Source: a virus. Taken from it: a stretch of DNA of 64,000 nucleotides. The stretch lies in the IMG/VR virus record IMGVR_UViG_3300043570_001741, positions 1-64,000 of that record, one strand, 5' to 3'. This document shows positions 2,248 through 33,503 of this stretch, piece by piece. The notes beneath the pieces were generated by a model. That model did no database searches and was not told the DNA's origin. It worked only from the letters and a program-made list of their open reading frames with translations. Each line of letters starts with the position of its first letter. Within the stretch, counting starts at the first letter, position 1. The translations under genes were made by a program, and so were the position numbers.

Positions 2248-3279
2248 ATGCTAGGAAACCAACACTTTTACAACAGAACCATACGTAAAATCGTAGTGGC
2301 TTTTGGCACTTTGTTTAATGACATTCAAATTGTTCGTTACAACAAAGACGTTAATCAATCTTATGAGACATATAAAGTACCTCTTTCATATGGACCAAAA
2401 GAACAATACATCACACGTATTACAAGTGACCCCGATTTAACAAGGTCTATTGCCACTCATGTGCCACGCATTTCATTTGAGATGACTGGTATGGCATATG
2501 ACTCAAGTAGAAAAAAAGTATCTACGTTACAGAATTTTGCTCTTGATGCTAACAATGGCCTAAAGACACAATATGCACCTGTACCATATGACTATGAGTT
2601 TTCTTTATCAATCTATGTGCGAAACACAGAAGATGGTACACAAATCATAGAACAGATTTTGCCATTCTTTACACCTGATTTTAATGTTACAGTTGATTTT
2701 ATTCCTGGCATGAATCAGAAGTATGACCTTCCAATTAAATTAGAGTCAGTAGCTACTAACGTTGAATATGAAGGTGACTTTTCTACAACCAGATTGATTG
2801 TTTGGGACTTGACATTCACAGTCAAAGGTTACATTTGGCCACCAGTCAAATCTGGTGGTGGTTTAATTGGTGCCTACAGTACAACTGCTAGTGCATATGG
2901 TTACACAAAGACTAATATCTTTATCGATACACAAGGCCGTGATGCTCAACGAATGTATGTTGACTATGCCAATGGTAACAATGTGTTCACCACAGGCGAA
3001 ACAATCAGAGTTGAAAATAAAGACGTTACTGGTAAGGTTGTTTACTTCAGTAACACAGAAAACGGTGTTCTAGTCCTTGGCGAACTAAGTAGTTTGGTAA
3101 CTGCTAACGACTTTGTTCTTGGTGATTACACCAATTCAAGGTACAAAGTAATCAGTTTAGATTTGACGCCGTTGAATGCAGCTGAGGTTATTGTTAGACC
3201 TGATCCTGCTAATACAGCACCAGATGACCAATTTGGATTTATTGATGAAATTACTGAATGGCCTGACACATTGATATGA
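2248..3279 (+). CDS. gp15: Tail sheath stabilizer/completion protein
   Basis: HFYNRTIRKIVVAFGTLFNDI, VPLSYGPKE, QIIEQILPFFTP motifs; synteny. Confidence 0.92.
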   Translation: MLGNQHFYNRTIRKIVVAFGTLFNDIQIVRYNKDVNQSYETYKVPLSYGPKEQYITRITSDPDLTRSIATHVPRISFEMTGMAYDSSRKKVSTLQNFALDANNGLKTQYAPVPYDYEFSLSIYVRNTEDGTQIIEQILPFFTPDFNVTVDFIPGMNQKYDLPIKLESVATNVEYEGDFSTTRLIVWDLTFTVKGYIWPPVKSGGGLIGAYSTTASAYGYTKTNIFIDTQGRDAQRMYVDYANGNNVFTTGETIRVENKDVTGKVVYFSNTENGVLVLGELSSLVTANDFVLGDYTNSRYKVISLDLTPLNAAEVIVRPDPANTAPDDQFGFIDEITEWPDTLI

Positions 3280-27892: not shown

Positions 27893-28464
27893 GTGAAATA
27901 CTAAGAATTGATACTAGTGCTGGTGTAACAAAAGCAACAGACACTATTGAAGACCTGCCTTTATATAATGATAATCATCCTATGTTAAAGGCTGTTATTC
28001 CAGAATATAGAATACAGTTGCCTAACCCATTGATGACCAAATTGGTTAAAAGGTTGAAACAAACAAAACTAAAATATGGCGGCATTGGCCTTTCTGCAAA
28101 CCAATGTGGTGTTATGGAAAGAGTATTCGTTATTGGGTATGAAGAAACTAATATGGTTTGTATCAACCCTAAAATCATTGATGCTTCGGCAGACTTGATT
28201 AAAGACAATGAAGGTTGCCTCTCTTTCCCTGGTTTATATGTTAAGATATCAAGGCCTAGTTGGTTGGAAGTAGAGTACGTTACTGAAAATGGCGAACTAA
28301 TACGACAAAGAATTGAAGGTCTGACTGCAAGATGTTTTGCACATGAATTGGATCATATGAATGGTACTAAGTTTACCGAACATGTTGGTCCAGTTGCACT
28401 CAGACTGGCTAAAGATAAACAAGAAAAACGCATTAAGAAACATGTGCGAAATAGAAAGAAATAA
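27889..28464 (+). CDS. def: Peptide deformylase
   Basis: GIGLSANQ, EGCLS, HELDH motifs. Confidence 0.93.
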   Translation: MSEILRIDTSAGVTKATDTIEDLPLYNDNHPMLKAVIPEYRIQLPNPLMTKLVKRLKQTKLKYGGIGLSANQCGVMERVFVIGYEETNMVCINPKIIDASADLIKDNEGCLSFPGLYVKISRPSWLEVEYVTENGELIRQRIEGLTARCFAHELDHMNGTKFTEHVGPVALRLAKDKQEKRIKKHVRNRKK

Positions 28465-29741
28465 TGGCATACGGATTTGACCCAAAAGATGATGTAGATA
28501 CGCAATGGACAAAATGGCATGCAGACTTTAAAGAGCCTGCTGTTTTGACTGATGAGACTTTACGTGAGAAAATCATTAGTGACCTTACATTTGTATCAAA
28601 GATGGATGTCAAAGAATATACATTATACCAAAAATGGTGTGAAGTGCAAGACAGATATCCTACAATGACTGTTAATGATTTGTGGGAAGGTGAGAAGGTT
28701 GTATTACAGAGTGATGTTCAACGTGATGCTATTGATGACATTAAGAACAACTTTTGGATTCCAGAAACACTTGAAGATTATCTGAAACTTGAACCTGAAA
28801 TGATTTACACAAACAAAGGTGAGAACTTGCCTGAATTGTGGAATTGTATTCGCACCTTTTCTTCTACAATGAAGAACAACTCTAACATTGGCCGCAATCT
28901 AAACTTCATCATTCGTGATAAGGTAACAAAGAAGTATCTTGGTGTTATTTGTATTTCATCAGACTTTCTTGATTTGACACCAAGAGATAATCACATTGGT
29001 TGGCCAAGAGAACTTAAAACACAAGGCGGTATGATTAACCATACTGCAATTGGTTCTACAATTGTTCCATTGCAGCCACTTGGTTTTAATTATGTTGGTG
29101 GTAAATTACTGGCACTTCTATGTCTTGCCGATCCTGTACAAGAATTGTGGAAGAAATTATATGGCGACACATTAGTTTCTGTAACTACAACTTCATTGTA
29201 TGGTAGAACTAAGGCTGATGGACTTTCTCAGTATGATGGTCTAGACCACTGGCAGAAAATGGGATTTACGGCAGGTTCGGTATCATTTGAACCAGAAAAA
29301 GAAACACGATATGATATTCGTGATTGGTTGAAAACAAAACATACACGTAAATACTTTGAATGGTATGTTGCAAAGAAGCCAAGCGGACAACCACATAAGC
29401 GTGACCATAAGAATCGTTCACTTCAGTTTGTTTATTCTAAATTGAATATTCCTAAAGAGTTGATTCGTACAGACCATGCTCGAGGCATTTATTGGTCGCC
29501 ACTATACGATAACTCTATTGATTACCTTAATAAGAAAATTGGTGATGATGACTTGGTTAAATCATTTGATACAAGCGTTGAAGCCTTAGTTGATATTTGG
29601 AGAACTAAACATGCCAAACCACGTATCAAACAATTGGCCAAAAAAGGCCGTAACAATAACGAAACCTTGTTCTATGACGACCTCTGTTATCTAACATGGG
29701 AACAGGCAAAAGAGAAGTATCTTTGCCAAGTTGGTCGTTAA
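28464..29741 (+). CDS. DUF4338/DruA-like protein (paralog 1)
   Basis: GRNL.FI, IVP.QP.GFNY.GGKLLA, TTTSLYG, SQYD motifs recalled for DUF4338; paralogous to 46245-47360. Confidence 0.7.
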   Translation: MAYGFDPKDDVDTQWTKWHADFKEPAVLTDETLREKIISDLTFVSKMDVKEYTLYQKWCEVQDRYPTMTVNDLWEGEKVVLQSDVQRDAIDDIKNNFWIPETLEDYLKLEPEMIYTNKGENLPELWNCIRTFSSTMKNNSNIGRNLNFIIRDKVTKKYLGVICISSDFLDLTPRDNHIGWPRELKTQGGMINHTAIGSTIVPLQPLGFNYVGGKLLALLCLADPVQELWKKLYGDTLVSVTTTSLYGRTKADGLSQYDGLDHWQKMGFTAGSVSFEPEKETRYDIRDWLKTKHTRKYFEWYVAKKPSGQPHKRDHKNRSLQFVYSKLNIPKELIRTDHARGIYWSPLYDNSIDYLNKKIGDDDLVKSFDTSVEALVDIWRTKHAKPRIKQLAKKGRNNNETLFYDDLCYLTWEQAKEKYLCQVGR

Positions 29742-29746
29742 AACGC

Positions 29747-29775
29747 TTGACAAACAGCCTATATAATTATATAAT
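29747..29775 (+). promoter_or_regulatory. Consensus sigma70 promoter for the tRNA-like RNA
   Basis: TTGACA (29747-52), 17-nt spacer, TATAAT (29770-75). Confidence 0.85.
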
Positions 29776-29785
29776 AGACACAAAT

Positions 29786-29848
29786 GCGGAGAGTCCGAGA
29801 CAGCCCGTCCCAACGGGCAGACAGGTTTAACTCCTGTTATCCGCTCCA
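29786..29848 (+). ncRNA. Non-canonical, truncated tRNA-Gly-like RNA (63 nt)
   Basis: Acceptor GCGGAGA/TATCCGC + T + CCA; T-arm ACAGG-TTTAACT-CCTGT; anticodon stem GCCCG/CGGGC with loop TCCCAA; D-arm reduced to GTC-CGA-GAC. Confidence 0.75.
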
Positions 29849-29875
29849 TTCCTAAGTCCCATGCGACTTCCCAAC

Positions 29876-29926
29876 TGTTGTTTTTACGCAACAGGCTCTT
29901 GACAAATCCTCCAGTTTTGATATAAT
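29876..29926 (+). promoter_or_regulatory. Sigma70 promoter with upstream TGTTG-N8-CAACA inverted repeat (CobT-like gene)
   Basis: TGTTG-TTTTTACG-CAACA at 29876-93, TTGACA 29899-904, 16-nt spacer, TGn-TATAAT 29921-26. Confidence 0.7.
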
Positions 29927-29953
29927 GGTTAGATAAATTCAAAAAGGTTTTGC

Positions 29954-32257
29954 ATGACAGCATTTACAGTAGAACAAAAATCTCAGCTTGCCAAGTTGAT
30001 GGCAACTGAGAACCTTACCATTCAACATTCAAAAATCCATACTGCCAAATTTGACCCAACTAAACGGATTCTTTATCTTCCTATGTGGAAAGATATGTCA
30101 AGTTTCATGTATGATTTGCTTGGCGGCCATGAGGTCGGTCATGCTCTTTATACTCCTGCGGATGGTTGGCATGATGTTGTTACCGATAAAAACAGAGGTA
30201 AGAATTATAAAGCTTTCCTTAATGTGATTGAAGATGCTCGCATTGAGAAAAAAGTTATTCGTAAATATCCAGGCCTTAAATCATCATTCCGTAAAGCATA
30301 TGCTGAATTAAGTGACCGTGATTTCTTTGGCATCCAACATCGTGACATTAACCATATGTCATTCATTGACCGATTGAATATCTATACCAAGAGCCAATAC
30401 AGCGAAAACATTAGATTTTCTGTTGAAGAAATGCAAATGATTGGTGAAGTTCAAATGCTTGAAACATGGAATGATGTGCTTCGGGTAACTGAAAAGATTT
30501 ATGGTTATTGTAAGAATGAACAATTTGAATTATCAATTGGTGATGATTTTGAATATGACGCTGAAGGCAATCCCTTAGATGAAGATGATACCAATTCCGA
30601 TTATGATTATGATACTGAATTGGATAATGGTGAATCTGGCGACAGCGAAGATTCGGATGAAACCTCAGATGAAACTACCGATGAAGAAACCGATGGTAAC
30701 TCTGATGGTGAAGGTGACGATTCCGATTCTGATGATGACGGCAACAATGTGAATCGTGATAAAGATTCGCAAATGTCCAATTTCGATTCAGAAGATTTTG
30801 ATCCAGAATGTGTAACTGACGATAACTACCGCAAAAACGAAGTGACATTGCTTGATGAAAAATGCAAGCCTTATGTGTACGCTAATATGCCTACACCTAT
30901 TTTGTCTAAAATTATCACACCTGCAAAACGGGTTCAAGAGTTGTTGACATTAGATTTTGCAAATCAGGTTAAAGATGGTTATATAACAGATGAAAGAATC
31001 AATGGTTTTGTACAAGAATTTCGTAATAGAAATGAACGTTACATTGCATTGCTTGCCAAAGAGTTTGAAATGCGTAAGGCTGCCAAATCATTCAGTAAGG
31101 CAAAGCAATCGGATACTGGTGATGTTGATGTTAACAAACTGGCTTCATACCGTTTTGATGACAATATCTTCCGTAAAATCATGCAAGTGCCAAAAGGCAA
31201 ATCACATGGTTTGATTCTGTTGCTTGATTATTCTGGTTCTATGTCAGATAACATGGCAGGTTCTATTGAACAAATCTTGGTTCTTTCCATGTTCTGCCGT
31301 AAAGTAAACATTCCATTCCATGTTTATGCATTCAGTAATGATTCTTCCACATGGTCAATTGATAATCCCAAGACTACTGCTGTACCACTTAGCGTTCTTG
31401 GAAATCCTATGGAAGTTCGTCAATGTTTTATGTACCAATCTGGTGAATTAAAATTTGAAGCTATTTCATTGCGTGAATATTTAAATTCTAAAATGACAAA
31501 TGCTGAATTTACCAAGGCCTTGCGTAACATGGTATTGTTGAAAAAGTCCTATGAAGGCGGTCGTTATGCTCGTGTTGTGCAAAGACCACATTCTGAAAGA
31601 CTTTCAAATACTCCTTTGACAGAAGCTTTGGTTGCAACACAAGCAATTATGAAAAACTTTAAACGTAGCAACAATTTGGATATTACAAACTTGGTAATTA
31701 TCCATGACGGTGATGCTGACTCCACTAATTGTGTGGCAAATGATGAAGGTGGTTACAATTGGTTTCATCCATTGTATGAGAATGTTATCCTTCAAGATAA
31801 CAAATTAAAATACCAGAAGCTAGTTAAGTCTAACAACTTAAGCAATGAAATGTTTGTTTCGGTTGCTGAGTGGTTTACCGCTACAACCAACTCTAAGATT
31901 TTTGGTTTCTTTATTGTTCCTCCTCATCGTTCAAAGGGCATCATTAGACATTACTACCATAATGAAAATAGATTACCTCTATACACTAAGCGTTCTGATG
32001 CTAACATAGATGCTGAGTTGATTAAACAACTGAAGCGTAAATTGGATACTCAGAAGTTTTTACATTCATTCAATCCTGGTTATGATTCGTTCTTCCTAAT
32101 TTCTGGTGGAAATGATTTAATGACCAATGATGGTGAAATTGAGGTTGATGGTAAACTTACAGCATCTAAGCTCAAGAATGCTTTTATGAAGTTCAATAAA
32201 GGCAAACAGATTAACCGAGTGTTAGTCTCCAAGTTCATTCAAGGCATTGCTGCCTGA
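29954..32257 (+). CDS. CobT-like protein with HExxH metallopeptidase-like, acidic linker and vWA domains
   Basis: HEVGHAL, NVIEDARIE, Asp/Glu-rich linker, LLDYSGSM MIDAS motif. Confidence 0.8.
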   Translation: MTAFTVEQKSQLAKLMATENLTIQHSKIHTAKFDPTKRILYLPMWKDMSSFMYDLLGGHEVGHALYTPADGWHDVVTDKNRGKNYKAFLNVIEDARIEKKVIRKYPGLKSSFRKAYAELSDRDFFGIQHRDINHMSFIDRLNIYTKSQYSENIRFSVEEMQMIGEVQMLETWNDVLRVTEKIYGYCKNEQFELSIGDDFEYDAEGNPLDEDDTNSDYDYDTELDNGESGDSEDSDETSDETTDEETDGNSDGEGDDSDSDDDGNNVNRDKDSQMSNFDSEDFDPECVTDDNYRKNEVTLLDEKCKPYVYANMPTPILSKIITPAKRVQELLTLDFANQVKDGYITDERINGFVQEFRNRNERYIALLAKEFEMRKAAKSFSKAKQSDTGDVDVNKLASYRFDDNIFRKIMQVPKGKSHGLILLLDYSGSMSDNMAGSIEQILVLSMFCRKVNIPFHVYAFSNDSSTWSIDNPKTTAVPLSVLGNPMEVRQCFMYQSGELKFEAISLREYLNSKMTNAEFTKALRNMVLLKKSYEGGRYARVVQRPHSERLSNTPLTEALVATQAIMKNFKRSNNLDITNLVIIHDGDADSTNCVANDEGGYNWFHPLYENVILQDNKLKYQKLVKSNNLSNEMFVSVAEWFTATTNSKIFGFFIVPPHRSKGIIRHYYHNENRLPLYTKRSDANIDAELIKQLKRKLDTQKFLHSFNPGYDSFFLISGGNDLMTNDGEIEVDGKLTASKLKNAFMKFNKGKQINRVLVSKFIQGIAA

Positions 32258-32258
32258 G

Positions 32259-32310
32259 TGTTGTATTAATACAACAGGGTGGTTGACAATACCTCCTGTT
32301 GTGTTATAAT
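32259..32310 (+). promoter_or_regulatory. Sigma70 promoter with upstream perfect palindrome (CobS-like gene)
   Basis: TGTTGTATTAATACAACA at 32259-76, TTGACA 32283-88, 16-nt spacer, TGn-TATAAT 32305-10. Confidence 0.75.
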
Positions 32311-32336
32311 ATACCCTATATTATGAAAGATTTATT

Positions 32337-33503
32337 ATGACAGCTCGTACTGAAATCCGTGAAAAGTTTATGTCCACTCTGCAAGCACTTGGCAAAGCCG
32401 AAGTGACTAAAGCAGAAATCAAATCCATTTGTGCAACTCTTGGCATTTCTGGTGCTCAATGGTTTACCAAAGAAGAATCGAACCGTGTTGGTCGTGGTAA
32501 ATACCTTGTACCTAATCCCGCATTAATATCAATGCAAGCCAATGTTGTGCCTATGAAAAAACCAGTTGAACAATCAAATCATAGAATTGTTAATGTAGTT
32601 ACTGACCTTGATACTACAAACTTAATTCCAACACCATATCGCAATTATGTCCCATTCGGTGACTTTGACGATATTGTTTCAATCGTGAAATCAAATCGAT
32701 TCTTTCCAGTATTCATTACTGGTCATTCAGGTAATGGTAAAACAATGTCTATTGAACAGGCCTGTGCAAAGGCTCGCCGTAAATTCATTTGCGTATCAAT
32801 GACACCTGAAACTGATGAAGGTGATTTGCTTGGTAACTATGTGTTGATTGATGGTAATATGGAATGGCGTGATGGTCCTGTAACAACAGCGGCTCGTCAA
32901 GGCGCTGTGTTATGTATTGATGAAATCGATTATGGTGCTCAGAACCTTTCCTCTTTGCAACGTGTACTTGAAGGCAAACCTTTCATGTTGAAAAAGAAAG
33001 GTGAATTGATTACACCTGCTGAAGGTTTCACCGTGTTTGCTACTGCAAATACTAAAGGTAAAGGTTCAGATGATGGTCGTTACATGTTCACCAATGTTTT
33101 GAACGAAGCGTTCCTTGAGCGTTTCCCCAATACATACGAACAACAATGGCCACCAACTAATATTGAAAAGAAAATCATTAAGAAAGAATTGGTTTCTGTT
33201 GGTCGTGATGATGAAGACTTTGCCGACAAACTGGTAATGTGGGCAGATACCATTCGTAAAACATTCTTGGATGGTGGTTGTGATGAAGTGATTTCCACTC
33301 GCCGTTTGGTACACATTGTGAATACATTTGGTATTCATGGTGATAAAATGAAATCTATTGGCTTGTGCTTAAACCGTTTTGATGATGACACAAAGGCAAG
33401 TTTTGTTGATTTGTATACCAAGATTGATGCAGGTATTAATCCTGATGCGCCACCTGTTATTGTGCCTGAAACCACACAACAATCGGAAGAAATTCCATTC
33501 TAA
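32337..33503 (+). CDS. CobS/MoxR-like AAA+ ATPase
   Basis: GHSGNGKT Walker A, LCIDEID Walker B, TANTKGKG, ISTRRL motifs. Confidence 0.9.
   Translation: MTARTEIREKFMSTLQALGKAEVTKAEIKSICATLGISGAQWFTKEESNRVGRGKYLVPNPALISMQANVVPMKKPVEQSNHRIVNVVTDLDTTNLIPTPYRNYVPFGDFDDIVSIVKSNRFFPVFITGHSGNGKTMSIEQACAKARRKFICVSMTPETDEGDLLGNYVLIDGNMEWRDGPVTTAARQGAVLCIDEIDYGAQNLSSLQRVLEGKPFMLKKKGELITPAEGFTVFATANTKGKGSDDGRYMFTNVLNEAFLERFPNTYEQQWPPTNIEKKIIKKELVSVGRDDEDFADKLVMWADTIRKTFLDGGCDEVISTRRLVHIVNTFGIHGDKMKSIGLCLNRFDDDTKASFVDLYTKIDAGINPDAPPVIVPETTQQSEEIPF

What the first reader, a model, noticed from the sequence alone, without database searches (positions are those of the whole stretch)
29786..29848. Miniaturised tRNA-like RNA with its own strong early promoter
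Independent of the enzyme hypothesis, this is a nearly D-armless tRNA mimic reminiscent of mitochondrial tRNAs. All stems are intact apart from one G-A mismatch, while the loops are altered, which argues for selection rather than random decay. Alternative roles are a decoy for host anticodon nucleases or a stringent-response modulator. Standard tRNA finders may miss it.
Basis: seen in the sequence. Interest (0 to 1): 0.75.

Follow-up and report, generated by a model that had tools for sequence, protein, structure and literature searches.

The report
Phage mini tRNA-Gly beside Mom-like enzyme
A lake-water T4-like phage encodes a conserved 63-base stripped-down glycine tRNA just after a Mom-like GNAT enzyme gene; it is probably a private glycine carrier for chemically modifying DNA, not a tRNA for making protein.

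Summary
Window 29786-29848 is a 63-nt mini-cloverleaf behind a perfect TTGACA-17-TATAAT promoter. ARAGORN and Rfam miss it. It is not decay: I found over 70 distinct sequence variants (63-70 nt) in more than 130 viral contigs, with compensatory changes in the acceptor, anticodon-like and T stems. All keep the bacterial GlyRS identity set (G1-C72, C2-G71, G3-C70, U73, a CC in the loop) and an encoded CCA. All lack what translation needs: the D arm is a 3-bp hairpin, and the loop is a CCCN tetraloop or has G33.

The decisive fact is linkage. In all 76 evaluable loci of the close clade, the RNA lies directly downstream of a DUF4338/DruA-type GNAT gene (window 28464-29741). In a reverse search, 41 of 42 elements had that gene upstream. 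The best solved structural match of the GNAT is phage Mu Mom, ranked first twice but statistically tied with other GNATs. Mom transfers glycine from Gly-tRNAGly onto DNA adenine (Nat Commun 2026).

Best reading (about 55%): a dedicated, non-translational glycyl donor for a Mom-like DNA hypermodification. Charging and transfer are untested. The scan's companion note e1-5731127 had already proposed the enzyme link.

The parts
28464..29741 (+). DUF4338/DruA-family GNAT gene (425 aa), the constant upstream partner of the RNA
   Evidence: Pfam PF14236, E 2.5e-17, 63.4 bits. AF2 model pLDDT 94. GNAT fold; best solved match is Mu Mom 8bv8_B at Z 9.5 (whole protein) and 11.4 (core), 168 residues aligned. 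A homologue lies directly upstream of the element in 76/76 evaluable close loci.
29747..29775 (+). Own sigma-70 promoter (TTGACA-17-TATAAT); predicted start 2-6 nt before G1
   Evidence: 12/12 consensus match. In relatives, a -10-like hexamer lies 9-11 nt upstream of G1 in most contexts, and nucleotide -1 is U in 98 of 106 contexts, the preferred RNase P context. The start site is inferred, not observed.
29786..29848 (+). 63-nt mini tRNA-Gly-like RNA (whole element)
   Evidence: Fold; covariance model 77 bits; covariation.
29786..29792 (+). Acceptor stem 5' strand (G1 C2 G3 G4 A5 G6 A7). It pairs with 29838-29844. G1-C72, C2-G71, G3-C70 and G4-C69 are invariant.
   Evidence: Pairs 1-4 are invariant in 29/29. 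Pair 5 occurs as U-A, A-U or C-G. Pair 6:67 is a conserved mismatch.
29793..29801 (+). Vestigial D arm: 3-bp stem with 3-nt loop (GUCCGAGAC). No G18G19 and no 8-9 linker.
   Evidence: The six stem positions are invariant in the 63-nt class. Compensated as GUU/AAC and GUG/CAC in the 67-70-nt classes.
29803..29818 (+). Anticodon-arm analogue: 6-bp stem capped by a CCCA tetraloop (29809-29812)
   Evidence: Four of six pairs show double changes. Pair 23-28 is C-G 17 / U-A 12. A CC is retained in the loop of every variant seen.
29821..29837 (+). T arm: 5-bp stem (A49-U65, C50-G64, A51-U63, G52-C62, G53-C61) and 7-nt loop UUUAACU
   Evidence: 99.3% paired; four pairs have double changes. U54, A57 and A58 are kept; 55 and 56 are not canonical.
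29838..29848 (+). Acceptor 3' strand (29838-29844), discriminator U73 (29845), encoded CCA (29846-29848)
   Evidence: CCGCUCCA is invariant in all family members. It has the same 3' end as the phage's canonical tRNA-Gly(UCC).

Best explanation
The element is a phage-encoded, miniaturised derivative of tRNA-Gly. It serves the upstream DUF4338 (DruA-family, Mom-like) GNAT enzyme as a private glycyl carrier.

Proposed steps:
(1) It is transcribed from its own strong sigma-70 promoter with a leader of a few nucleotides. RNase P trims the 5' end (U at -1), and the encoded CCA forms the 3' end.
(2) The host GlyRS charges it with glycine. The RNA keeps the bacterial glycine identity set: G1-C72, C2-G71, G3-C70, purine4-pyrimidine69, U73 and a CC in the distal loop.
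(3) It cannot enter translation. It has no D-loop/T-loop elbow, no 7-nt anticodon loop with U33, and weak EF-Tu-type T-stem pairs. Its glycine is therefore reserved for the enzyme.
(4) The GNAT takes the glycyl group from the 3' end and transfers it to a target. The target is most likely adenine N6 in phage DNA, as shown for Mu Mom, giving a restriction-blocking hypermodification.

Shown here: the structure, conservation and covariation of the RNA; its tRNA-Gly ancestry; its linkage to the GNAT gene; and the GNAT fold with Mom as best structural match. Inferred: transcription start and processing, charging, exclusion from translation, glycyl transfer, and DNA as the target.
For: RNA is real and selected. 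In 29 distinct 63-nt homologues, 92% of cells are paired and 11 of 21 pairs change on both sides. The covariation score is 0.32 against 0.11 in shuffles (0/500) and at most 0.09 for slid registers. More than 70 distinct sequences of 63-70 nt all fold to the same mini-cloverleaf.

tRNA-Gly ancestry. The family model's only other hit in the genome is the canonical tRNA-Gly(UCC) at 89864-89937 (31 bits). That tRNA shares GCGG...CCGCUCCA with the element. The 67-70-nt relatives still have 7-nt loops reading U-G-(U/C/A)CC-A-A.

Identity set. It matches the published determinants G1C72, C2G71, C35, C36, U73 and purine4:pyrimidine69 (PMC10464925).

Linkage.
- All 76 loci of DruA-like genes (>=72% identity) with enough downstream sequence carry the element on the same strand. 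It lies 24-70 nt after the stop codon, and about 550 nt after it in five loci.
- Among loci fetched through the downstream CobT-like gene, all 26 with the element have the GNAT gene directly upstream, and no locus without that gene has the element.
- In the reverse scan for the RNA motif, 41 of 42 evaluable elements have the gene upstream.

Enzyme.
- DUF4338 is called a GNAT domain in PMC10853773.
- The AF2 models are confident (pLDDT 94 and 92.5).
- Mu Mom (8bv8) ranks first against 48,161 PDB chains for both models. It scores Z 9.5 and 11.4 with 168 aligned residues, against 139-149 aligned residues for the next GNATs.
- Mom is the first named GNAT in the viral library.
- A cyanophage homologue has been annotated 'methylcarbamoylase mom' on structural grounds (PMC12801897).
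- Family members fused to ParB_N and to DndF point to DNA as the target.

Precedent.
- Mom transfers Gly from Gly-tRNAGly to N6-adenine in dsDNA. It needs the tRNAGly body but accepts all isoacceptors, and is thought to read the 3' acceptor end (PMC13219725).
- S. aureus non-proteinogenic tRNAGly escapes EF-Tu through A49-U65 and A51-U63 (PMC7826273). The mini-tRNA has A49-U65 in 24/29 and A51-U63 in 27/29 sequences.
- The phage encodes no GlyRS, so charging would fall to the host enzyme.
Against: No sequence-level homology to Mom could be shown. The protein does not hit Pfam Mom PF25680 even at E<=10. Profile-profile comparison of DUF4338 with a 30-member Mom alignment gave nothing. Mom's essential R111 and S124 have no evident counterparts. 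Structurally, Mom leads the other GNATs by less than 1 Z unit, which is a tie.

The family keeps a Q-x-x-G...GGK stretch at the usual GNAT CoA-pyrophosphate site. Acyl-CoA chemistry is therefore not excluded.

A D-arm-deleted tRNAGly was a very poor substrate for L. plantarum alpha2beta2 GlyRS (PMC10464925). Charging of this RNA is thus not assured.

The enzyme occurs without the RNA in marine relatives (Pelagibacter phages Mosig and HTVC008M), in a 55-59% identity clade, and in some close relatives. The RNA is therefore an accessory, not a requirement. One locus (L208) has the RNA without an adjacent enzyme gene.

There is no direct evidence of a 63-nt transcript.
Confidence: 0.55

Rival explanations
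1. The RNA partners with the GNAT, but not as an amino-acid donor. It could be the enzyme's substrate (for example acetylation of the loop cytidines as TmcA does, or N-acetylation of its glycyl end as TacT/AtaT2 do). It could also be a scaffold, or an inhibitor that holds a potentially toxic enzyme in check.
For: The same linkage data apply. The family keeps a GNAT motif-A-like Q-x-x-G...GGK segment. The CCC loop and the D hairpin are conserved almost to the base, which suggests direct protein recognition. TmcA (2zpa) appears among the weak Foldseek hits. Mom over-expression is toxic (PMC7261163).
Against: It does not explain why the complete GlyRS identity set and the encoded CCA are invariant. 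It does not explain why a phage would carry an enzyme only to modify its own small RNA. The enzyme also exists without the RNA in many relatives, which fits an optional donor better than an obligatory substrate or antitoxin.
Confidence: 0.15
2. The RNA is a decoy or sponge for host defences that attack tRNA-Gly through its acceptor end. Examples are toxSAS enzymes such as FaRel2, which pyrophosphorylate the CCA end of tRNAGly, GNAT toxins that acetylate Gly-tRNAGly, and anticodon nucleases.
For: The RNA has a strong constitutive-type promoter. The tRNAGly acceptor stem and CCA are invariant. FaRel2 selects tRNAGly by inspecting the acceptor stem (bioRxiv 10.1101/2024.07.05.602228, abstract). 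The phage also carries 23 canonical tRNAs, a trait often linked to tRNA-targeting defences.
Against: A decoy has no reason to be tied to one particular enzyme gene in 76/76 loci. The 63-nt class has no anticodon loop, which rules out anticodon nucleases. The conserved CC loop and the D hairpin are unnecessary for an acceptor-stem decoy.
Confidence: 0.1
3. The element is a cis-acting processing or regulatory signal (for example an RNase P cleavage site or a transcript punctuation mark between the GNAT gene and the CobT-like gene), not a free RNA with its own function.
For: No terminator follows the element. One metatranscriptome contig from a relative runs from inside the element (29800) into the downstream gene.
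Against: The element has its own consensus promoter, and the downstream gene has a second one. Nothing in a punctuation role requires the glycine identity set, the CC loop and a fixed CCA. Tandem copies occur, separated by 3 nt as in tRNA clusters. The element follows the GNAT gene rather than the downstream gene, which is found without it.
Confidence: 0.05
4. The element is a decaying tRNA-Gly pseudogene, or an odd but translating tRNA-Gly(CCC).
For: It clearly derives from tRNA-Gly. Its loop contains CCC.
Against: Compensatory changes across more than 70 variants show selection on structure. No relative has a normal tRNA at this site. A tetraloop closed by a covarying pair, G33 in the longer forms, and the absence of G18G19, Psi55 and C56 are incompatible with ribosomal decoding as currently understood.
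Confidence: 0.04

Closest known systems
Phage Mu Mom with host Gly-tRNAGly (tRNA-dependent adenine hypermodification to 6-NcmdA; PMC13219725)
   Same: A phage GNAT-fold enzyme is associated with tRNA-Gly, and Mom is the best solved structural match of the neighbouring protein. Mom discriminates the tRNAGly body, probably through the acceptor end, which is the invariant part of the mini-RNA.
   Different: Mu uses the host's ordinary translational tRNAGly and encodes no RNA of its own. Here the phage supplies a dedicated, translation-incompetent mini-tRNA. The enzyme belongs to Pfam DruA/DUF4338, not Pfam Mom. It is 425 aa against 241 aa, with extra N- and C-terminal regions, and shows no detectable sequence homology to Mom. 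Its product and target are unknown.
Non-proteinogenic tRNAGly isoacceptors of Staphylococcus aureus (glycine donors for FemXAB; PMC7826273)
   Same: These are tRNA-Gly variants charged by the normal GlyRS but diverted from the ribosome to a GNAT-fold aminoacyl transferase. They share the weak EF-Tu T-stem pairs A49-U65 and A51-U63 and the loss of canonical D-loop/T-loop elbow residues.
   Different: The staphylococcal tRNAs are full-length with normal anticodon loops, can still decode, are cellular, and feed cell-wall synthesis. This RNA is 63 nt, has a tetraloop instead of an anticodon loop, and is phage-encoded next to its presumed enzyme.
D-arm-lacking mitochondrial tRNAs (nematode/mite type)
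   Same: Small size and an extreme reduction of the D arm, with the acceptor and T helices kept.
   Different: Mitochondrial armless tRNAs keep a 7-nt anticodon loop and decode on specialised ribosomes. ARAGORN's mitochondrial modes do not call this element. This one is bacterial in type (U73, encoded CCA, sigma-70 promoter) and cannot decode.
DruA of type I Druantia (Pfam PF14236)
   Same: The neighbouring protein is a member of this Pfam family.
   Different: Druantia DruA is a bacterial defence component of unknown mechanism with no known RNA partner. Here the family member is a phage gene in a T4-like replication/recombination module, paired with a tRNA-like RNA.

Membership tests
Canonical bacterial tRNA (Rfam RF00005 / ARAGORN) | Recognised by tRNA covariance or heuristic models | tested here: not met
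   ARAGORN in standard, -ps90, -mt and -mtmam modes gives no call at 29786-29848. Rfam gives no tRNA hit at gathering scores or at E<=10. None of the family is called in 342 related loci.
Canonical bacterial tRNA (Rfam RF00005 / ARAGORN) | Four-arm cloverleaf: 7-bp acceptor stacked on a 5-bp T stem, discriminator base and CCA | tested here: met
   MFE fold. Pair counts and covariation on 29 homologues. Position 6:67 is a conserved mismatch.
Canonical bacterial tRNA (Rfam RF00005 / ARAGORN) | 7-nt anticodon loop with U33; D loop with G18G19 pairing to Psi55/C56 of the T loop | tested here: not met
   The loop is a CCCN tetraloop closed by a covarying pair. The D arm is a 3-bp/3-nt hairpin and the T loop reads UUUAACU. 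Longer relatives have G33.
Bacterial tRNA-Gly (GlyRS identity) | G1-C72, C2-G71, G3-C70, U73, C35/C36, purine4-pyrimidine69 (PMC10464925) | tested here: met
   All acceptor determinants are invariant in every family member with one exception: one variant has A4-U69, which is still purine-pyrimidine. A CC is present in every loop. The CC cannot be numbered 35/36 in the tetraloop forms.
Bacterial tRNA-Gly (GlyRS identity) | Is actually aminoacylated with glycine | not testable with these tools
   Needs a charging assay. Caveat: a D-armless tRNAGly was poorly charged by L. plantarum GlyRS.
Non-proteinogenic tRNA-Gly (S. aureus type) | Weak EF-Tu T-stem pairs (A49-U65, A51-U63) | tested here: met
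   A49-U65 in 24/29 and A51-U63 in 27/29 sequences, compared with PMC7826273. EF-Tu affinity itself was not measured.
Non-proteinogenic tRNA-Gly (S. aureus type) | Loss of elbow residues | tested here: met
   No G18G19, and positions 55 and 56 of the T loop are not canonical.
Pfam DruA / DUF4338 (PF14236), neighbouring protein | HMM match above the gathering score | tested here: met
   63.4 bits against a cut-off of 27, E 2.5e-17, residues 113-356. The structural nearest clusters in the ESM Atlas are DruA clusters with TM 0.82.
Mom family (Pfam PF25680), neighbouring protein | HMM or profile similarity to Mom | tested here: not met
   No PF25680 hit at E<=10. hhalign of the DUF4338 profile against Mu Mom and against a 30-sequence Mom profile gave probability <=1%. 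PF25680 is not found in the genome.
Mom family (Pfam PF25680), neighbouring protein | GNAT fold with a Mom-type extra helical insertion late in the fold | tested here: inconclusive
   The GNAT fold is clear. Mom ranks first with Z 9.5/11.4 and the longest alignment (168 of 202 residues), but lies within 1 Z of ordinary GNATs. The model has three helices (279-326) between two late strands. An invariant R340-G341 aligns with Mom R196-G197 only in a weak 17-column hhalign match.
Mom family (Pfam PF25680), neighbouring protein | Uses Gly-tRNAGly to modify adenine in dsDNA | not testable with these tools
   Biochemical. Only the genomic association with a tRNA-Gly-like RNA was shown here.

The most novel reading that the evidence does not exclude
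The pairing shows that the whole DUF4338/DruA family consists of aminoacyl-tRNA-dependent nucleic-acid-modifying transferases like Mom. That family includes DruA of type I Druantia, the DndF-fused and ParB-fused forms, and the giant-virus homologues. It also shows that a lineage of freshwater T4-like phages has evolved an orthogonal minimal tRNA: 63 nt, chargeable by GlyRS but invisible to EF-Tu and the ribosome. This RNA acts as a private cofactor that uncouples DNA hypermodification from host translation.
Probability: 0.3. Interest if true: 0.85.

Novelty: new variant of a known kind. Interest (0 to 1): 0.78.

Why it matters
tRNA-dependent DNA hypermodification was established only recently, for a single enzyme (Mu Mom) that borrows the host's translational tRNAGly. 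A phage-encoded, miniaturised tRNA-Gly fixed next to a Mom-like GNAT would matter in four ways.

(1) It would be the first virus-encoded non-translational aminoacyl carrier.

(2) It would give a testable biochemical handle on the large, uncharacterised DUF4338/DruA family (881 clusters at 50% identity). That family includes a core Druantia defence protein.

(3) It would define a natural minimal GlyRS substrate that escapes EF-Tu and the ribosome, which is of interest for orthogonal tRNA engineering.

(4) It shows that tRNA finders systematically miss a conserved class of phage tRNA-like genes present in well over a hundred lake-water viral contigs.

Tried and rejected
- Rfam at gathering and at E<=10, and ARAGORN in four modes: no call for the element.

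- Sequence homology of the neighbouring protein to Mom: no hit from Pfam or NCBIfam scans, an HMM search of PDB sequences, or two hhalign runs. Foldseek against the PDB gave only weak GNAT hits with E>1e-3.

- The covariance model on Pelagibacter phages Mosig and HTVC008M: no element. Instead, both share a different conserved hairpin in the intergenic stretch just upstream of the peptidase gene (directly after the DUF4338 gene in HTVC008M, after an intervening MazG gene in Mosig).

- More distant DUF4338 genes. P0010 (44% identity) is followed directly by an overlapping small ORF. P0027 returned no DNA. The pattern search with P0041 found nothing.

- Expression. Six RNA-library runs held a small share of the 501-nt stretch. 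The four that I laid are assembled contigs from relatives (90-97% alike) and mostly cover 29851-30100. One contig starts at 29800. No contig covers the whole element. Contigs cannot show ends, and small structured RNAs are normally lost from such libraries, so this says nothing either way about a 63-nt species.

- Phage-encoded GlyRS: no credible match. PF02091 scored 15.7 bits, below its cut-off, and PF00587 gave none.

- Complex prediction was not used because the tool does not take RNA.

Full report
THE OBSERVATION

Window 29786-29848 reads GCGGAGA-GUCCGAGAC-A-GCCCGU-CCCA-ACGGGC-AG-ACAGG-UUUAACU-CCUGU-UAUCCGC-U-CCA. Its minimum-free-energy and centroid structures are the same mini-cloverleaf, at -25.8 kcal/mol with z = -3.76 against dinucleotide shuffles. 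A 12/12 sigma-70 promoter (TTGACA-17-TATAAT, 29747-29775) starts 5 nt after the stop codon of the upstream gene. Its -10 hexamer ends 10 nt before G1. No intrinsic terminator follows. A second consensus promoter (29899-29926) serves the next gene.

ARAGORN misses the element in standard, relaxed and two mitochondrial modes. Rfam misses it at gathering scores and at E<=10 on the local stretch. The description is therefore correct, and so is the remark that standard finders miss it.

GENOMIC SETTING

The window is the first 64 kb of a 157.7-kb, 38% G+C viral contig. DNA runs holding a 501-nt stretch around the element are lake-water metagenomes. Gene order around the element is a gp47/gp46-like nuclease pair, peptide deformylase, a DUF4338 protein, the RNA, a CobT-like 'peptidase', and a CobS-like AAA ATPase. 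The T4-like Pelagibacter phages Mosig and HTVC008M (Kyanoviridae) share the recombination-endonuclease gene, the DUF4338 gene and the peptidase in the same order.

The phage has 23 canonical tRNAs in a cluster at 86.6-90.3 kb, all with encoded CCA. They include tRNA-Gly(UCC), GCGGGAU...AUCCCGCUCCA.

THE RNA IS CONSERVED AND STRUCTURALLY CONSTRAINED

Loci fetched through the downstream gene, through the upstream gene and through an RNA motif yielded more than 70 distinct variants in over 130 viral contigs.

Twenty-nine distinct 63-nt members align without gaps. On this alignment:
- 92% of cells are paired and 11 of 21 pairs change on both sides.
- The covariation score is 0.32, against 0.11 in shuffles (0 of 500 reach it) and at most 0.09 when the 3' partners are slid.
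- Acceptor pair 5:68 occurs as U-A, A-U and C-G.
- T-stem pair 50:64 occurs in five types.
- The anticodon-arm pairs occur in two to three types each.
- Positions 23 and 28 are C-G (17) or U-A (12) and never unpaired, so the loop is a CCCN tetraloop, not a 6-nt loop.
- The 6:67 mismatch is itself conserved (27 of 29).

Longer classes (64-70 nt) keep the same architecture. Their D hairpins are GUU..AAC or GUG..CAC, which are compensated versions of GUC..GAC. Their distal stems are longer, with 5-nt loops, or they have 7-nt loops reading U-G33-(U/C/A)CC-A-A. Some relatives carry two copies in tandem, a CCC type followed by a UCC type, 3 nt apart.

No relative has a normal 74-76-nt tRNA-Gly at this position.

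WHAT IS KEPT AND WHAT IS LOST

Invariant in every member are G1-C72, C2-G71, G3-C70, U73, the encoded CCA, and a CC in the distal loop. G4-C69 is invariant except for one A4-U69 variant. This is the published bacterial GlyRS identity set, including the purine4-pyrimidine69 preference (PMC10464925).

A covariance model of the family finds only two things in the whole phage genome: the element (77 bits) and the canonical tRNA-Gly (31 bits). The RNA is thus a tRNA-Gly derivative.

Everything specific to ribosomal function is lost. There is no G18G19/Psi55-C56 elbow, no U33, and in the 63-nt class no anticodon loop at all. The T stem starts A49-U65, N50-N64, A51-U63. In Staphylococcus aureus non-proteinogenic tRNAGly, the A49-U65 and A51-U63 pairs lower EF-Tu affinity (PMC7826273). 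The phage's own canonical tRNA-Gly has C51-G63.

Nucleotide -1 is U in 98 of 106 sequence contexts. The -10 element sits 9-11 nt upstream in most. Both fit a very short leader removed by RNase P. Processing is inferred, not observed.

THE KEY FACT: LINKAGE TO A GNAT GENE

The upstream ORF (28464-29741, 425 aa) belongs to Pfam DruA/DUF4338.

- Of the 80 closest viral loci encoding this protein (>=72% identity), 76 have enough downstream sequence. All 76 carry the RNA on the same strand, 24-70 nt after the stop codon. In five it lies about 550 nt after it.
- Among 75 loci fetched through the downstream CobT-like gene, the 26 that carry the RNA are exactly the 26 in which a DruA-like gene was found. 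In loci where another gene precedes the CobT-like gene, the RNA is absent.
- In the reverse direction, an RNA-motif scan gave 43 full elements. Forty-one have the gene immediately upstream, one lies at a contig edge, and one (L208) lacks the gene.

The linkage is not symmetrical. Marine Pelagibacter phages, a 55-59% identity clade and a few close relatives have the enzyme without the RNA. The RNA therefore behaves as an accessory of the enzyme, not the reverse.

WHAT THE ENZYME IS

DUF4338 has been called a GNAT domain on comparative grounds (PMC10853773). My AlphaFold models are confident: whole protein pLDDT 94, core residues 100-372 pLDDT 92.5.

- Against 48,161 PDB representatives, the best match in both searches is the crystal structure of phage Mu Mom (8bv8_B). 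It scores Z 9.5 and 11.4, with 168 of 202 residues aligned. The next GNATs score Z 8.9 and 10.8 with 139-149 residues aligned. FemA scores Z 7.9 and 10.1.
- Mom is also the first named GNAT in the viral structure library.
- A cyanophage homologue of this protein has been annotated as Mom on structural grounds (PMC12801897).
- Sequence and profile methods do not connect the two families. I therefore file the protein under DruA/DUF4338, 'Mom-like in fold', and not as a Mom family member.
- Fusions of the domain to ParB_N and to DndF point to DNA-directed functions.

WHY THIS MATTERS FOR MECHANISM

Silva et al. (Nat Commun 2026, PMC13219725) showed that Mom transfers glycine from Gly-tRNAGly to N6 of adenine in double-stranded DNA. 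An on-base rearrangement then gives N6-carbamoylmethyl-adenine. All three tRNAGly isoacceptors work, but Gly-tRNAAla does not, and recognition probably lies at the acceptor end. They note that drawing on the translational pool may be costly. That paper mentions neither DUF4338 nor any phage-encoded tRNA-like partner, and I found no other report of one.

Consider an RNA that retains only the glycine identity set, the acceptor/T helix and CCA, that has shed everything needed for EF-Tu and the ribosome, and that is glued to a Mom-like GNAT gene. It is best explained as a dedicated glycyl donor for that enzyme. The closest functional analogy is the non-proteinogenic tRNAGly that feeds FemXAB in S. 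aureus.

The phage encodes no GlyRS, so the host enzyme would have to charge it. This is the weakest inferred step, because a D-arm-deleted tRNAGly was a poor substrate for one alpha2beta2 GlyRS.

RIVALS

- The RNA could be a substrate, scaffold or inhibitor of the GNAT rather than a donor. The family keeps a motif-A-like Q-x-x-G...GGK segment.
- It could be a decoy for acceptor-stem-directed tRNAGly toxins such as the toxSAS FaRel2. That does not explain the gene linkage or the conserved CC loop.
- A decoy for anticodon nucleases, or a stringent-response mimic, is hard to reconcile with a tetraloop.
- A pure cis-processing role does not explain the identity set or the separate promoters.
- Pseudogene decay is excluded by the covariation.

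EXPRESSION

Metatranscriptome contigs from relatives cover the downstream leader and gene. One contig begins inside the element. None covers the whole element. This is uninformative for a 63-nt RNA.

VERDICT

The enzyme-coupled reading, already proposed in the scan's companion note e1-5731127, is strongly supported at the level of genomic association. It is plausible but unproven at the level of chemistry.

I class it as a new variant of a known kind: tRNA-dependent DNA hypermodification and non-proteinogenic tRNAGly. The new feature is a virus-encoded, miniaturised, non-decoding tRNA.

Noticed in passing
window 29876-29893 and 32259-32276; also genome 79429, 84088, 102529, 104713: An inverted repeat TGTTG-N8-CAACA sits a few nucleotides upstream of the -35 box of several consensus promoters. 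Six of 15 plus-strand copies in the genome precede a promoter-like site. The same motif precedes the CobT-like gene promoter in many related contigs. It could be a regulator binding site or a transcript-end hairpin. It matches the scan's note e1-5731142.
   Followed up: partly
L030 859-926 and 930-998; L150 1877-1944 and 1947-2015; L290 2872-2938 and 2943-3009: Some relatives carry two mini-tRNA-Gly genes in tandem, 2-4 nt apart. Usually this is a CCC-loop type followed by a 67-70-nt type with a 7-nt loop U-G33-UCC-A-A. The second copies look like intermediates between a canonical tRNA-Gly(UCC) and the 63-nt form.
   Followed up: partly
L208 2157-2219 (minus strand): This is the one locus where the mini-tRNA, with its own promoter, sits between a 207-aa ORF (in the position of the peptide deformylase gene; not scanned) and the CobT-like gene, with no DUF4338 gene. 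The enzyme gene may have been deleted or moved. The contig is only 6.5 kb.
   Followed up: partly
L165 3630-3665 and L164 4215-4250 (Pelagibacter phages HTVC008M and Mosig): These marine relatives lack the mini-tRNA. Both share a conserved hairpin-like stretch (GCUGUGCGA..UGACGCA) preceded by GUAGAACA, in the intergenic stretch just upstream of the peptidase gene (directly after the DUF4338 gene in HTVC008M, after an intervening MazG gene in Mosig). Whether it is a remnant of the element or another RNA is unknown.
   Followed up: no
L291 and L347, downstream of the DruA-like gene (about 2817-3100): In close relatives of the L220-type enzyme (90-92% identity), the mini-tRNA slot is occupied by a promoter plus a small ORF. 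This shows recent gain or loss of the RNA.
   Followed up: no
protein of window 28464-29741: Structural homologues of this DUF4338 protein occur in giant viruses (Faunusvirus, Yasminevirus, Dasosvirus; Foldseek E 1e-20 to 1e-9). They also occur as ParB_N fusions in a 235-member, mostly viral cluster.
   Followed up: no
window 29954-33503: The downstream 767-aa protein (PHROG 'peptidase', HExxH-like motif, weak CobT similarity) and the 388-aa AAA_5/CbbQ-like ATPase form the CobT/CobS-like pair common in T4-like marine phages. Their function is unresolved. They occur with or without the GNAT-RNA module.
   Followed up: no
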